A stretch of 63,344 nucleotides of DNA from the NCBI GenBank assembly GCA_002753335.1, contig PEAD01000006.1, forward strand, positions 62,001-125,344, read 5' to 3'. Shown one piece after another: positions 51,001 to 60,000 of the stretch. The position numbers were made by a program. The first letter of the stretch is position 1. Each line of letters starts with the position of its first letter. This DNA is from Nitrospirae bacterium MYbin3. Its GTDB lineage: Bacteria > Nitrospirota > Thermodesulfovibrionia > Thermodesulfovibrionales > Dissulfurispiraceae.

Positions 51001-54000
51001 CATCCGCGATTTTACAAGATTTGCGGTTTTTGTCGAGACATGTTTTTCGAAGCCTTCTCCGTCGGGATAAGCAACACTCAGCGCAAGCATCATCGGATTT
51101 ACCTTTTCTAGATCATTTATGTTTGCCTCCACAGCAAGAACTGAGGAGCGGGAGAATGCATCTTCGATAGTCTTTGAAAGAGGATACACGTCCGCCCTCA
51201 TCGAATGTATAGAGCCTAAAAGATAAAGAGTGTTGGCCTTAGACTTCACCTTCCATAAAAAATTATTTTCTCCGTAGCATATTGAAGGCAAGTATAAGAA
51301 AAAGCATAGAAGCGCAGCTGCCGTAAAAAGCGATGTTTTCTTTGTGCGTAAAAAATTCACAATAATCCTCTCCCGAAACTGTTTTGATTAATGTAGTACT
51401 AAAAATCTTAATCAGTCAAGAACTCAGAACTTAAAATTTGCAGCCCATCCCGGTTATTTAAATTTTAAATATTTATATAGTTCTGTATCCCTAAAAAAAA
51501 CGGCATGCTAAAGTTAGAAACTATCACGCAAAAAGTTTATGCCGACGGAGGAAGATAATGAAGACGTCAGAATTTAACCTTGATGAATACTATGGAGAGA
51601 TTGGCACCGTCCTAACCGATGACAAAAAAAAGAGAGGCCTTCTGATACATGCGTTCCAGCAGATTCAAAAAGATTACAACTATCTGCCGGATGAGAGGCT
51701 CCGGGAGCTTTCCAAAAATCTCGACATCCCCCTTGCAGACGTTTACAGCACCGCATCATTTTATAAGCATTTCTATTTCAAGCCGCGCGGCAAAAACATC
51801 GTCTGCGTCTGCATGGGCACGGCCTGTCATGTCAGAGGCGCATCCAAGGTGCTGCATAAGCTTGAAGAGGAGTTCGGGGTTAAAGAAGGTGAAACTACCG
51901 AGGACATGTCGATGACGCTCGAAACCGTGGGATGTGTTGGATGCTGCGGCCTCGCGCCTGTGGTAACCGTCAACGAAGAAGTTGTCGGGGACGTTGGAAG
52001 CGACAAGCTTAAAGATATTATTGACGGCGTAAGAAAAAGCCGGTAGGCATGATCGAAAGGAGGAATGATGGGTAACAGACTTGCAAGCATAGATGACCTA
52101 AAGAGCCTGAGGCAAAAACTGTCAACCGAAACGTTCGATCCCGCTAAACCAAGGATTAGAGTGTGCTGCGGAACGGCCTGCACAGCATCAGGCTCACATA
52201 AAGTTATAGATTCCTTAAACAAAGAAACTTCTGAAAAAGGAATCGATATGGAGATAGTCAAGACCGGCTGTCAGGGTATGTGCCAGAACGGCCCTATAAT
52301 GAAGGTCGAGCCGTATGAGATTTTTTATCAGAAGGTAAAGCAGGAGCAGGCAGCCTCTCTTATCAGTTATACGTATATAGGCGGGTTGCCTTACAGACAG
52401 GCCCTTTACAGGGAAGATATATCGAGCGATCCAATAACCGAAATGTCGGATCTGCCTTTTTATAAAAAACAGGTCAGGATAGCTTTAAGGAACAACGACA
52501 AAATAGATCCCACAAATATTTATCACTATATTGCGGTCGGCGGGTATGCTGCGCTCGAAAAAGCGCTTTCTACAATGACACCTGATGATGTACTGAACGA
52601 GGTGGATAGAGCAAACTTAAGAGGGCGAGGCGGAGCGGGCTTCCCGGCAGGCCAGAAATGGCGCCATTCCAAAGGTGCAAAGGGCAAGGTTAAATTTGTA
52701 ATAGCAAACGGAGATGAGGGTGACCCCGGAGCCTTTATGGACAGGTCTATAATGGAGGGCGATCCGCACAGCCTGTTTGAAGGCATGATATTATCCGCTT
52801 ACGCTATAGGAGCCGAATACGGTTTCGTGTATGTCAGACATGAATATCCGCTTGCTGTCAAAAATTTAAAACATGCGATCAGGCAGGCCGAAGAGCTCGG
52901 CTTGCTTGGCAAAAACATTCTCGGGAGCGGCTTTAATTTTCATCTTGATGTAAGAGAAGGCGCAGGGGCTTTTGTCTGCGGGGAGTCCACAGCACTAATC
53001 GCCTCGATAGAGGGAGAGAGGGGCTTTCCTCGTCCGCGTCCTCCAAGGCTTTCTGAGCAGGGCGGCGGAGTTTGGGGCTTTCCGAGCAACCTGAACAACA
53101 TAGAAACTTATGTATGCGTCCCCCCGATTATAGAAAAAGGCGCCGACTGGTTCAGCAGCATTGGAACTATAACATCCCCCGGCACCAAAGTTTTTGCACT
53201 TACAGGCAAGGTCGTAAATACCGGCCTTGTAGAAGTGCCTATGGGCATGACACTGCGCGAAATCATCTTCGACATCGGCGGCGGCATACTGCACAATAAA
53301 AAATTCAAAGCGGTGCAGACCGGCGGGCCTTCGGGCGGATGCCTTCCGGAAAAGTATCTGGACCTGAAAGTTGATTTTGACAATCTTTTTGCTGTCGGCT
53401 CGATGATGGGCTCAGGCGGCATGGTCGTACTGGATGAAGATACCTGCATGGTGGATGTGGCTAAATATTTTCTGTCATTCACCCAGTCCGAATCCTGCGG
53501 CAAATGCCCGCCATGCAGAATAGGCACATCGCAGATGCTGCAGATACTTCAGAACATAACAGATGGAAAAGGAAAGCCGGGAGATATCGAAAAGCTGATA
53601 GACCTAGGCAAACATATACAAGCAGCCTCTCTTTGCGGACTCGGCCAGAGCGCGCCAAACCCTGTGCTTTCAACAATAAAGTATTTCAGGGACGAATACG
53701 AAGAGCATATCTACGGCAATTTCTGCAGGGCCAACGTCTGCAAGGGCACCGGTGTTTTCGTTATAAATCACGCCGAATGCTTCAGGTGCGGTCTCTGCAA
53801 AGAAGCCTGCGCCTTCGATGCTGTAAAAGAGGGAAGGAACAGCTACTTTATAGACCGCGATTACTGCCAGAAATGCAAGGCCTGCTATCATGCCTGCCCT
53901 ATCGGCGCGGTGAAGATAAGGAAACAGACCGTGGTTAAACTTGAGGAGCAGTTCAAGATACCTACGGACAAAATAGAGATACTCGAAAGGAGGGCAAGGA

Positions 54001-57000: not shown

Positions 57001-60000
57001 CGGTTCAAGGCTGCTCTGGTTGAAGGAATCCGAAAAAACTGCGGTTTAAATTTAAATAAAAAGGAAGAGCTTGAAAACAGTTAATTTTCAAGCTCTTCCT
57101 TTAATGTTTTATATATCGATTTTATCGCCGGACACGTCGCTTTCGGCCTGAATTTGGGTGTCTTCCTGGCTTCGCATTATCCAGATAGTTGCAAATTCTT
57201 TGTCCTGAAAAACCTTGACCATACCGAGTTTTAAAATTTCGAGCAGCGCTAGAAATGTGACGATGACCTGAAGTCTTGTTTTGTCGGATGAAAAAATATC
57301 CTCAAACTTTATTGTCAAATCGCTTTCTATTTTTTCTACGATAGCTGAAATACGGTCCTTGATAGTCAGCGTCTCCCTCGAAATCATAAGGGCTTCTGGA
57401 GGCACGCGCGTAATTATTTTTTTGAGCGCCCCCAGCAGATCAAAAAGGTTTACGTCGAACAGATAAAGTTCGGAAGGCTCTGTTGTCAGCTCTTTAGTGT
57501 CTATAGGTGGACGCGCAAATGCGTTGGTCCATAAATCCTCACGCTCTCTAAGCGTTGTTGAGGCCTCTTTATATGCCTGATACTCCAGCAGTCTTTGCAC
57601 AAGGCCTGCTCTCGGATCTTCCTCCTCAGGCAATGCTTCCATATCAGGGTCCGGCGGCAACAGCATCCTTGATTTTATATAGATAAGCGTGGAAGCCATA
57701 ACCAGAAATTCGGAGGCTATCTCGAGATTCAGTTCTTTCATGATATCTATATATTCCAGATATCGCCTCGTTATAAGAGCGATCGGAATATCGTAAATAT
57801 CAACCTTATTCTCTTTGATAAGATGCAGCAGCAAATCGAGAGGGCCCTCAAAAACAGGCGGGCCTTCAGACAGCCCCGGAACCTTTATGCTGTATGGATC
57901 TATATCTTCAGCAGTGTCTTCCATTTAAGGGATCACCTTGTTAAGAGGATATTCGACTATTCCTGACGCCCCGGCGCTTTTAAGTTTAGGTATTATGTCC
58001 CTTACCGTTTTTTCGTCTATTATCACATCAATTGCATACCATTCCTTGTCTGTAAGCGCGGATACCGTAGGCGAGTGCATTGCGGACAAAAGACTTAGCA
58101 CACGCTTGAACGATCTATCCGGCACGTTCATTTTCAATCCTACCTTTTCTTCAGCAGCAAGCGCGCCTTGCAGTAAAAGCGCAATATTTTCCATCTTGCG
58201 GCGCTTCCATTTGTCCTGCCAAGCCTTTTTGTTGGCGATAAATCTTGTTGTGGATTCTATAAGCGTTTCAACTATTCTAAGATTGTTAGCCCTCAGCGAA
58301 GAACCGGTTTCTGTAAGCTCCACTATTGCATCAGCAAGATGCGGCGGTTTAACTTCGGTGGCGCCCCATGAAAAATCGACTTCCGCTTTGATGCCTTTGG
58401 ATTTCAGAAACCTCTTTGTGAAACCCACAAGCTCCGTTGCTATGCGCTTGCCTTCGAGGTCTTTAAGCGATTTTATTTTTGAATCATTAGGCACCGCCAC
58501 AACCCAACGTACAGGCCTAAAACCCTCTTTAGCATATTTAAGTTCTGCAATCTCGATAATGTCAGCATTCTGCTCCTTAACCCAGTCGTAGCCGGTCAGC
58601 CCACAGTCGAGATGGCCGTCTTCAACATAGCGTGCCATTTCCTGAGCCCTTATAAGCATCGACCCTATTTCTGCATCCTCAAATACCGGATAGTATGAGC
58701 GCGAAGAAACGCTTATGTGGTACCCGGCCTTTTTAAAAAGCCTGAGAGTTGACTCCTGAAGACTGCCTTTGGGCAATCCTAATTTGATGGTATTTTTTGA
58801 GTTTTTCATTGTCTGCAATCCTTTCCTGCTCTATAAAGCTGCGTCTAATATTTTAAGTGCTACGCTTAGTTGTGTCAAACAAAGGACAGGCCTTTATTCC
58901 ATAACATCTCGGCATACAGCTTAGGGTAACCCTAATGAAAGAAAAAGAAAGTGGTGCGAGAGAGGGGAGTTGAACCCCTACAGGTTTCCCCACTGGATCC
59001 TAAGTCCAGCGCGTCTGCCAGTTCCGCCACTCTCGCTCAGTTGATTTTACAGGCTTTTTGAGTCATTCTGCAATCTCTTTTTTTCAGGTCCAGCAAAACT
59101 CCAGCAGACAAAAGCGGAATATACGGAAAATAAAGGATAATTTTCAAAATATAGTACAGTAATCATACTGCAACCCTCATCAAACCAGATAAACCGTTCG
59201 TAAATATTCTTTTCGCCCATAATCTCCTCAGGGTTCTATTTGTCGCGCAAGTCCGAGGATATTTTGTTATGAATGTACACTATCCGTTTTTTGCTGACAA
59301 TTTTCCTTTATTTGTCACTTGTACTTTTGCAGGCTACTTTGCGGCTTGTCAGGGATAGTGCGTTCTATGAGCCCATTCTCTAAAGCGGGCAAAAGATATG
59401 CTTTTCTAAAAAGCAGACCGTTTGCAAGACCCCCACGGTTCAGAGTGTTTTGGTACAGAAACTTAAGCCCTGTCACATAGAACCGATAGGTGCCTTTCGA
59501 GATATTACGTTCCTTCATGAGATAAAGCAGATACTCTCTTAGTTCTTCTTCTTTCAAATCCTCAGGTGACTTGCCGAAATGTTTGGCCAAATTGCTCACT
59601 TCCCTCAAATAGCTTCTCTGTGTTTGAGGTGTTGCTCCACGTAACTGAAGGTCTGTCCGCATCTTCTCTCTCAATGTGCTCATACAACATCTCCTTTGCT
59701 GCCGATATCCGAATAGCTCATGCCATCGGTAAAACAAAGGAGATTGTAATAAGATTATTCCTGTCAGACAAGTAGCAAAAGATGCTATGCGAAAATAATG
59801 AAACTGTTTATCAGTCTGTGGTCGCTTATCAGAAGGCTACCGCGGAGCGGTTTAGTTCTTCTGTTTGTAACTATTATACGAGATACCTGTAGTCTACAAA
59901 TTCTTGAAAGAGTTTTCAAAAAAGAGTGATGATTATCGCATAGGCAAAATAGTGTCAGCAATTATAATTCGAATTATTTTCCAATAGGCTTTGATATAAT

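What a model noticed while it worked through the whole genome (the two positions that open the first line are those of the whole stretch)
51558..57049. CBS nucleotide-sensor pair fused to the HydB/NuoF flavin subunit of a bifurcating-type complex
In a four-gene HydC-HydB-ferredoxin-like-NuoG-like operon that lacks an H-cluster or Mo site, the 780-aa HydB/NuoF subunit ends in a tandem CBS pair. The CBS module likely binds adenine nucleotides and gates NADH/ferredoxin electron bifurcation by the cell's energy charge. Allosteric nucleotide control built into a bifurcating flavin subunit is undescribed.
Evidence so far: g02798: 46% to T. maritima HydB over 588 aa plus CBS 657-704 and 716-769. A search with the CBS part returned 251 proteins; the best 120 listed all carry NuoF Fe-S domains with CBS, mostly about 779 aa and named Nitrospirota. 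CBS lies near 2Fe-2S thioredoxin genes in at least 112 of 316 order genomes. In G151 the 70%-identical orthologue is 626 aa without CBS and follows the acs/CODH genes. g02800 lacks the molybdopterin-binding C-terminus. Paper searches 77, 85, 86 empty.
(Added by a program. Inside this text positions count along the whole contig: contig position 62,001 is position 1 of the stretch shown here. "Call 12" and the like, gene names such as g00115 and contig names such as C1 are that model's own, and its searches are not shown. The text may have been shortened before it was handed on; [...] marks where a part breaks off. The agent that wrote the report below was given it as the finding of a first reader that could run no searches.)

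Follow-up and report, generated by a model that had tools for sequence, protein, structure and literature searches.

The report
CBS-tailed flavoprotein serving CO dehydrogenase
The flavin subunit of a four-gene, hydrogenase-like iron-sulfur module ends in a conserved CBS domain pair; the module likely links NADPH and ferredoxin to the CO dehydrogenase of this bacterium's acetyl-CoA pathway, and the CBS pair is predicted to bind an adenosine-containing ligand that would tune the ferredoxin branch, none of which has been tested.

Summary
The fusion is real. The 781-aa subunit keeps every Bfu (HydB-type) cofactor ligand and ends in a well-folded CBS pair under purifying selection. About 153 of 390 class genomes carry it; 286 carry the operon's marker gene. 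(1) The partner is likely CODH/ACS: acs/cooS genes lie in 69 of 81 fetched loci and nuo genes in none. Here the operon is detached from the acs cluster on C27. (2) The pocket (S308, R328) matches the NADP-specific T. kivui enzyme, not the NADH enzymes. (3) CBS site 1 is intact, but this genus has His where 167 of 170 sequences keep the site-2 Asp. The ferredoxin arm tracks CBS status in 30 of 34 comparisons, against 3 of 34 in a control. Ligand, regulation and bifurcation are untested, and energy-charge gating is only one option. The scan found this fusion before on other DNA (e1-4975767, e1-2077366). I found no paper on it. Verdict: new variant of a known kind.

The parts
51558..52046 (+). 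BfuC/HydC (NuoE-like) subunit, 162 aa, one [2Fe-2S] thioredoxin-like domain (C1)
   Evidence: PF01257 E 1e-45; NuoE/HoxE models below their cut-offs
52065..54410 (+). BfuB/HydB flavin subunit, 781 aa, with C-terminal CBS pair
   Evidence: Pfam; TM 0.91 (target-normalised) to T. kivui HydB; AlphaFold pLDDT 86.9, pTM 0.82; ligands conserved across 170 sequences
52986..53048 (+). Nucleotide-pocket markers S308 (CGES) and R328, the pattern of NADP-specific T. kivui HydB
   Evidence: alignments to five solved BfuB subunits; family counts; PMC10021017 passage on Arg340
53715..53918 (+). B3/B4 2x[4Fe-4S] ferredoxin arm (aa 551-618); R574 and R598 are typical of CBS-bearing forms
53925..53999 (+). Conserved two-helix linker (aa 621-645) between the ferredoxin arm and the CBS pair
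   Evidence: conservation; helices 621-630 and 634-644 in the model
54000..54407 (+). CBS pair (aa 646-781) with conserved tail (P771 170/170, E772 99%)
   Evidence: dN/dS 0.03-0.16 in five pairs
54144..54164 (+). CBS site 1 motif G694-I-F-T-E-R-D700, canonical
   Evidence: D700 170/170, T697/E698/R699 99%; motif definition in PMC6429129
54336..54356 (+). CBS site 2 motif G758-L-V-S-Y-R-H764; the ribose-binding Asp is His in this genus
   Evidence: Asp in 167 of 170; His only in the query, P0001 and L039
54420..55013 (+). Subunit X, 197 aa: a free-standing copy of the BfuB tail (B1, B2/Zn site, B3, B4 ligand sets), no flavin domain
   Evidence: 31% identical to BfuB 457-616; all 16 ligands 75/75; fused to BfuB in a 903-aa protein of G160
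55037..57049 (+). BfuA (NuoG-like) subunit, 670 aa, five Fe-S motifs, molybdopterin-type body without the Mo-binding end
   Evidence: Cys ligands 71/71, His96 71/71
57060..57102 (.). Bidirectional terminator-like hairpin closing the operon against scpA
   Evidence: 18-19 bp stem found on both strands; a consensus match only

Best explanation
The four genes encode a Bfu-type flavin/iron-sulfur module with no catalytic centre of its own, which likely exchanges electrons between NADP(H), ferredoxin and the CO dehydrogenase/acetyl-CoA synthase, and whose CBS pair is predicted to bind an adenosine-containing ligand that would tune the ferredoxin branch. SHOWN: domain order, cofactor ligands, conservation, gene context in relatives, pocket residues, CBS motifs, and co-variation of the arm with CBS status. 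INFERRED, step by step: (a) the BfuBC core bifurcates/confurcates as in HydABC (about 0.7). (b) The third partner is CooS/ACS, reached through BfuA and/or subunit X; in this genome it is encoded on another contig (about 0.65). (c) The pyridine nucleotide is NADP(H) (about 0.7). (d) CBS site 1 binds an adenosyl ligand (about 0.75). (e) Binding changes activity (about 0.5), most simply because CBS pairs of two protomers dimerise and restrain the mobile B3/B4 arm on which ferredoxin docks. AMP/ADP/ATP is my first guess for the ligand; AMP is a product of APS reduction in this likely sulfate reducer (own knowledge).
For: Bfu ligands B1-B5 are conserved in 169-170 of 170 sequences, with Thr in 161 at the fifth B2 position (criteria from PMC9304861). 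acs/cooS genes lie within the 20-kb locus in 46 of 57 CBS-bearing and 23 of 24 CBS-less loci; none has nuoB/D/H/L. The operon sits inside the acs cluster in L053, L054 and L143. G000 has acsEDCB-cooS on C27. The ES/R or EA/R pocket occurs in 81 of 88 CBS-bearing subunits; four NAD-type solved enzymes have EE with F or Y, and T. kivui has ES/R. T. kivui HydABC reduces NADP, not NAD (PMC8578170). nfnAB-like genes lie in 12 of 41 loci. CBS site 1 is invariant and CBS dN/dS is 0.03-0.16. The CBS gene is kept as a separate ORF between B and X in G020, G013, G070 and L188. Ferredoxin binds at the mobile C-terminal HydB domain (PMC10021017; PMC11829005). The arm tracks CBS status in 30 of 34 comparisons against 3 of 34 in the control.
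Against: No activity, binding or expression data. About half of the operons lack the fused CBS (about 153 fused against 286 with X, of 390), and the trait changes at least 8 times on a quick tree, so it is dispensable. This genus has lost the site-2 Asp and is detached from the acs genes; 11 of 57 CBS-bearing loci show no acs gene within the fetched 20 kb. No column of B(1-620), C or A, and only one of X, is conserved specifically in fused forms. The arm signal may reflect recombination of adjacent DNA, and kin are not independent. Thermodynamics (own knowledge): CO2/CO is about -520 mV, so averaged NADPH plus ferredoxin electrons (about -430 mV) drive CO2 reduction only if ACS keeps CO very low, and oxidation of free CO needs no bifurcation. 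The NADP call rests on one characterised comparator. CBS sites also bind NADPH/NADH (PMC5535039).
Confidence: 0.45

Rival explanations
1. The CBS pair senses redox or alarm dinucleotides (NAD(P)H, Ap4A, c-di-AMP) rather than energy charge.
For: The nearest folds are 3FHM, 2RC3 and 4FRY; I recall these were solved with NAD(H) and/or AMP, which no call confirmed (searches were empty). AMPK CBS3 binds NADPH (PMC5535039). An Ap4A-bound CBS protein is among the fold hits.
Against: Only 25-31% identity to those structures. T-E-R-D, R-H and Y-R-D fit mononucleotides equally well.
Confidence: 0.2
2. The CBS pair is mainly a dimerisation or scaffold unit that ties two flavin subunits together, with little ligand control.
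For: CBS pairs form head-to-head dimers (PMC6429129). Tandem CBS-bearing BfuB duplicates occur in L057, L059, L060, L104 and L111. The tail is highly conserved even in split forms. Site 2 is degenerate here.
Against: The ligand-contacting residues D700, R699, T697, R746 and H747 are the best-conserved positions of the domain, which a pure scaffold would not need.
Confidence: 0.2
3. The module does not bifurcate. It is a plain NADPH diaphorase or electron relay for CODH or another enzyme, and X takes over the low-potential arm.
For: No assay exists. The thermodynamic fit of CO as mid-potential substrate is weak (own knowledge). X duplicates the B1-B4 arm.
Against: The B2-B5 sites, absent from non-bifurcating homologues (PMC9304861; PMC11829005), are all retained.
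Confidence: 0.12
4. It is a detached input module of respiratory complex I (Nuo-Bfu, which Schut et al. report for Nitrospirae, clade 39).
For: NuoE/F/G likeness; PMC9304861 section 5.
Against: G000's complex I operon on C5 has its own short NuoE/F/G. In 5 of 5 single-contig genomes a separate 424-439-aa NuoF lies about 2 kb from nuoD. No nuo gene in 81 of 81 loci.
Confidence: 0.04

Closest known systems
HydB of the NADP-specific bifurcating hydrogenase HydABC of Thermoanaerobacter kivui (PDB 8A6T; PMC8578170, PMC10021017)
   Same: 53% identity and TM 0.91 over the core; same CGES and Arg pocket and Thr at the B2 site
   Different: No H-cluster in the A subunit; an extra subunit X; a C-terminal CBS pair
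NiFe-HydABCSL of Acetomicrobium mobile (PDB 7T2R; Type 3 Bfu)
   Same: Best sequence match (738 bits); BfuA without its own catalytic site, fed by separate subunits
   Different: NAD-type pocket (EE/F); the partner is a NiFe hydrogenase; no CBS
Codh-Bfu / CodhABCSF, predicted only (PMC9304861; PMC12318220)
   Same: BfuABC genes linked to a CooS CO dehydrogenase, with CO/CO2 proposed as third substrate
   Different: Described as Type 2 (BfuA lacking A3 and A5), Firmicutes only, with CooF. This one has a 670-aa BfuA with five Fe-S motifs, subunit X, a link to the full ACS cluster, an NADP-type pocket and CBS
Stand-alone CBS-pair proteins ATU1752 (3FHM), NE2398 (2RC3) and 4FRY
   Same: Fold (TM 0.72-0.73 to the query, rmsd 1.8-1.9 A); site-1 motif G-I-x-T-E-R-D and the R-H-x-P motif in 3FHM and 2RC3
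   Different: Not fused to an enzyme; 25-31% identity; site 2 lacks the Tyr-Arg; no conserved PE..Y.A...Y tail

Membership tests
Bfu family (PMC9304861) | BfuB with FMN/NAD(P) domain and B1 [4Fe-4S] | tested here: met
   PF01512, PF10589; C478/481/484/524 170/170
Bfu family (PMC9304861) | B2 (Fe-S or Zn) site with the conserved His | tested here: met
   C461, H548, C554, C559 170/170; T499 161/170
Bfu family (PMC9304861) | B3/B4 [4Fe-4S] pair and B5 [2Fe-2S] | tested here: met
   eight arm Cys 170/170; C34, C39 169/170; C69, C73 170/170
Bfu family (PMC9304861) | Adjacent BfuC (C1 cluster) and BfuA genes | tested here: met
   BfuA ligands 71/71
Bfu family (PMC9304861) | Coupled reduction of ferredoxin and NAD(P) by a third substrate | not testable with these tools
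   needs the purified enzyme
Codh-Bfu (predicted Type 2) | BfuA lacks clusters A3 and A5 | tested here: not met
   five Fe-S motifs conserved in the 670-aa subunit; mapping them onto A1-A5 is my inference
Codh-Bfu (predicted Type 2) | CODH genes between bfuB and bfuA, with a CooF subunit | tested here: not met
   X lies between B and A; cooS is usually just upstream of bfuC in relatives and on C27 here. CooF was not searched for specifically
Codh-Bfu (predicted Type 2) | Placement in BfuB clade 49 | not tested
   reference clade sequences were not in hand
Nuo-Bfu | bfuABC inside a 14-gene nuo cluster, in place of nuoEFG | tested here: not met
   0 of 81 loci; separate canonical nuoEFG
Adenylate-sensing CBS (Bateman) module | CBS-pair fold | tested here: met
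Adenylate-sensing CBS (Bateman) module | G-h-h-T/S-x-x-D/N ribose-phosphate motif, site 1 | tested here: met
   G694-D700 (motif from PMC6429129)
Adenylate-sensing CBS (Bateman) module | Same motif, site 2 | tested here: not met
   H764 in the query; Asp in 167 of 170 aligned sequences
Adenylate-sensing CBS (Bateman) module | Ligand binding changes the host enzyme's activity | not testable with these tools
   needs binding and activity assays

The most novel reading that the evidence does not exclude
A four-subunit, NADPH- and ferredoxin-confurcating electron gateway for CODH/ACS with a duplicated ferredoxin arm (X). Its low-potential branch is switched by adenylates through a built-in CBS module, so that Wood-Ljungdahl carbon flow in sulfate-reducing Nitrospirota follows the AMP made by sulfate respiration. 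It would be an allosterically gated electron-bifurcating enzyme, for which my searches found no precedent.
Probability: 0.25. Interest if true: 0.85.

Novelty: new variant of a known kind. Interest (0 to 1): 0.58.

Why it matters
Bfu enzymes gate electrons by moving the ferredoxin arm and the BfuC domain, and no metabolite switch on them turned up in my searches. A natural ligand-binding module on that arm, with CBS-bearing, split and CBS-less versions in close relatives, is a ready-made experiment on how the gate works. The module would also make two open points testable: whether a CO-linked Bfu enzyme exists (predicted in PMC9304861, unpurified per PMC12318220), and how deep-branching Nitrospirota feed electrons to CODH/ACS.

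Tried and rejected
Complex prediction of BfuB core (1-618) + X + CBS as separate chains gave 'no answer', score 0.00 against a mark of 0.32; it is not used as evidence either way. Sequencing runs: no RNA holder was listed. Complex I input module: rejected. Neutral passenger or assembly artefact: rejected. A search for a CBS docking surface by group-specific conservation found 0 columns in B(1-620), C and A and 1 in X; the reverse contrast led to the arm result. The many 136-aa 'stand-alone' CBS proteins were not taken at face value, because they begin at the Met that is internal in the fusion and many lie on short contigs; only split genes seen in DNA were counted. The profile search of cluster representatives mostly ranked generic multi-CBS proteins and added nothing. 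The careful tree did not finish, so the quick tree is reported, and 2 truncated rows were dropped. Paper searches with no hit: (CBS domain + bifurcat + NuoF). One search gave one paper that does not describe this operon in the passages seen. One search gave one paper, seen as a listing only. 'CBS' occurs 0 times in the main texts of PMC9304861, PMC10021017, PMC12318220, PMC11829005 and PMC10203281.
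Full report
OBSERVATION. The window holds four co-oriented genes at 51558-57049, closed by a terminator-like hairpin. Pfam and NCBIfam read them as a NuoE/HydC-like subunit (162 aa), a HydB-type flavoprotein (781 aa) ending in two CBS stretches, a 197-aa protein with NADH_4Fe-4S and 2x4Fe-4S domains (here called X), and a NuoG-like subunit (670 aa) with no Mo-binding end and no H-cluster. A search with residues 560-781 gave 538 proteins; all 120 listed carry both CBS and the NuoF Fe-S domain. AlphaFold2 on a 100-sequence alignment gave pLDDT 86.9 and pTM 0.82. 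The core matches T. kivui HydB (TM 0.91 by target) and the tail matches CBS-pair structures 3FHM, 2RC3 and 4FRY.

CORE. In 170 aligned fused sequences (full-length homologues plus fetched loci, not deduplicated), the ligands of B1, B2, B3/B4 and B5 are present in 169-170, with Thr in 161 at the fifth B2 position. These are the Bfu criteria of PMC9304861 (abstract, passages, section 5 part 2, section 6 part 1 and supplement text searched; its figures were not visible). PMC11829005 (passages) notes that the B2 site is often Zn, that non-bifurcating homologues lack B2-B5, and that deleting B3/B4 abolished bifurcation in T. kivui. X is a copy of the BfuB tail (31% over residues 457-616) and keeps all 16 ligands in 75 of 75 sequences. 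In G160 it is fused to a BfuB in a 903-aa protein directly before the A gene, which supports X being a subunit.

PARTNER. I fetched 80 loci of up to 20 kb, hand-picked for long contigs and family spread, some genomes twice, and added the window's own stretch. acs/cooS genes were present in 46 of 57 CBS-bearing and 23 of 24 CBS-less loci, and nuoB/D/H/L in none (labels checked on representatives). The usual order is acsE-D-C-B-cooS-C-B-X-A. In L053 and L054 the four genes sit between acsC and acsB; in L143, a record titled Ca. Brocadiia, they sit between cooS and acsB. That record is the only match among 132 genomes of its class, which suggests transfer of the block. In G000 the acs cluster is on C27 and nfnAB-like genes on C21, so the operon is detached here, as in same-genus G081. 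Complex I has its own short NuoEFG in G000 and in 5 of 5 single-contig relatives, which argues against the Nuo-Bfu reading. G000 also has dsrA above cut-off, qmoC and MTHFR. Titles of related records name Nitrospirae and Thermodesulfovibrionales.

NUCLEOTIDE. An earlier scan note (e1-2081354) mentioned NADH- and NADP-type pockets, so I tested this. The query has CGES (S308) and R328. Of five solved BfuB subunits aligned, four (A. mobile, T. maritima, T. sibiricus, C. saccharolyticus) have CGEE with Phe or Tyr, and T. kivui has CGES with Arg340. PMC10021017 (passages) names Arg340 as a nucleotide contact. PMC8578170 (passages) shows that T. kivui HydABC reduces NADP and not NAD. Among distinct fetched subunits, 81 of 88 CBS-bearing ones are ES/R or EA/R (2 EE/F, 2 EA/L, 3 unmatched); 43 of 53 without fused CBS are too. 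NADP(H) is therefore the better guess, though it rests on one characterised comparator.

CBS PAIR. Site 1 (G694-I-F-T-E-R-D700) fits the G-h-h-T/S-x-x-D/N motif (PMC6429129, passages) and is nearly invariant, as are R746, H747 and P749. Site 2 has Asp in 167 of 170 sequences but His in the query, P0001 and L039. Loss of this Asp silences a site in AMPK (PMC5535039, passages). The CBS part is under purifying selection in 5 of 5 close pairs (dN/dS 0.03-0.16), including G000 against G081 (0.013/0.451). By my count, 153 of 390 class genomes score E<=1e-50 with the arm-plus-CBS query, a proxy for the fusion; 286 of 390 carry X. In a 401-genome phylum sample, 2 genomes outside the class also matched, both with the operon next to cooS. 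On a quick tree of 89 cores (2 truncated rows dropped) the trait needs at least 8 changes, 4 of them forced by well-supported branches. The CBS gene survives as a separate ORF with the same tail between B and X in G020, G013, G070 and L188, and after A in G011. Free copies at 70% identity flank a formate-dehydrogenase-type Bfu operon in G313 and G315.

LINK TO THE FERREDOXIN ARM. Ferredoxin docks at the mobile C-terminal domain of HydB, which is where the linker and CBS pair attach. Arm residues differ by CBS status. Position 574 is R/K in 64 of 74 fused subunits and L in 30 of 34 CBS-less ones; position 598 is R in 63 of 74 and Q in 33 of 34. For 30 of 34 CBS-less subunits the arm is closer to more distant CBS-less arms than to the arm of the nearest fused relative; the same test on the B1 domain gives 3 of 34. 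Only loci with a single BfuB of 600-830 aa were used, and kin are not independent. Arm and tail either co-evolve or move together by recombination; the data do not separate these. No fused-specific conserved column appeared in B(1-620), C or A, and one in X.

MECHANISM. Most likely NADPH and reduced ferredoxin enter at BfuB and their electrons pass through BfuA and/or X to CooS, or the reverse. An adenosyl ligand at CBS site 1 would change the dimer or the position of the B3/B4 arm, and so the ferredoxin branch. Weak points: there is no assay; CO2/CO at about -520 mV (own knowledge) is a poor mid-potential substrate unless ACS keeps CO very low; half of the operons lack the fused CBS; and the ligand could be a dinucleotide. 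A scaffold role and a non-bifurcating relay remain open. Confidence in the whole is 0.45, and in energy-charge gating specifically about 0.3.

KNOWN AND NEW. It works like a Type 3 Bfu and meets every sequence criterion of the family. It fails the stated features of the predicted Codh-Bfu (Type 2, CODH genes between B and A) and of Nuo-Bfu. Searches were empty, and searches listed no title on this fusion. The library lacks most subscription papers, and I did not read the CODH surveys by Adam et al. 2018 or Inoue et al. 2019 (cited), which may show these neighbours. PMC10203281 (passages) places the Wood-Ljungdahl genes in this class without naming the module. PMC12018979 was seen as a listing only. 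The scan has reported the CBS fusion (e1-4975767, e1-2077366) and the CODH link (e1-4975766, e1-2572544, e1-2102503, e1-4409606, e1-5238659) on other DNA. I reached the CODH link before seeing those notes, and they are not independent support. Verdict: new variant of a known kind, interest 0.58.

Noticed in passing
G000:C36:29902-30339 (L004:5903-6340): The closest CBS paralogue in this genome (41% identical, both site Asp intact) lies between qmoC and a membrane pyrophosphatase gene, at the end of a cluster I read as adk-sat-aprBA-qmoABC (qmoC and PPase; the other labels recalled from the sequences).
   Followed up: partly
L099:8946-11657 (G160): A 903-aa protein joining BfuB, an extra ferredoxin-like stretch and subunit X, directly before the A gene, with no acs gene in the locus.
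   Followed up: partly
L057, L059, L060, L104, L111, L081, L098, L199, L200: Tandem duplicates of the BfuB gene; in several pairs one copy has the NAD-type pocket (CGEE) and the other does not.
   Followed up: partly
L220:9686-10147 and L221:10082-10585: Free-standing CBS genes 70% identical to the fused pair, next to a second, formate-dehydrogenase-type Bfu operon; the L220 copy also has His at site 2.
   Followed up: partly
L143 / L227: One Ca. Brocadiia record carries cooS-C-B(CBS)-X-A-acsB; 1 of 132 genomes in its class, probably transferred.
   Followed up: partly
window 54048-54176 (aa 662-704): Three Cys in the CBS pair: C704 in 154 of 170 sequences, C662 and C666 in about 55%. A possible thiol switch; geometry not checked.
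   Followed up: no
window 43527-48881: Two similar genes of about 170 aa (43527-44027, 48369-48881) bracket an 855-aa P-loop GTPase-like gene and a 347-aa coiled-coil protein with several tandem repeats of about 21 aa (labels by eye).
   Followed up: no
window 59315-60774: An integrase-like fragment and a nucleotidyltransferase plus HEPN-like gene pair, perhaps a toxin-antitoxin unit (labels recalled, not tested).
   Followed up: no
G000:C35:86459-86926: A further NuoE/HydC-like gene (40% identical) at a contig end, so another Bfu-like operon may be unassembled.
   Followed up: no
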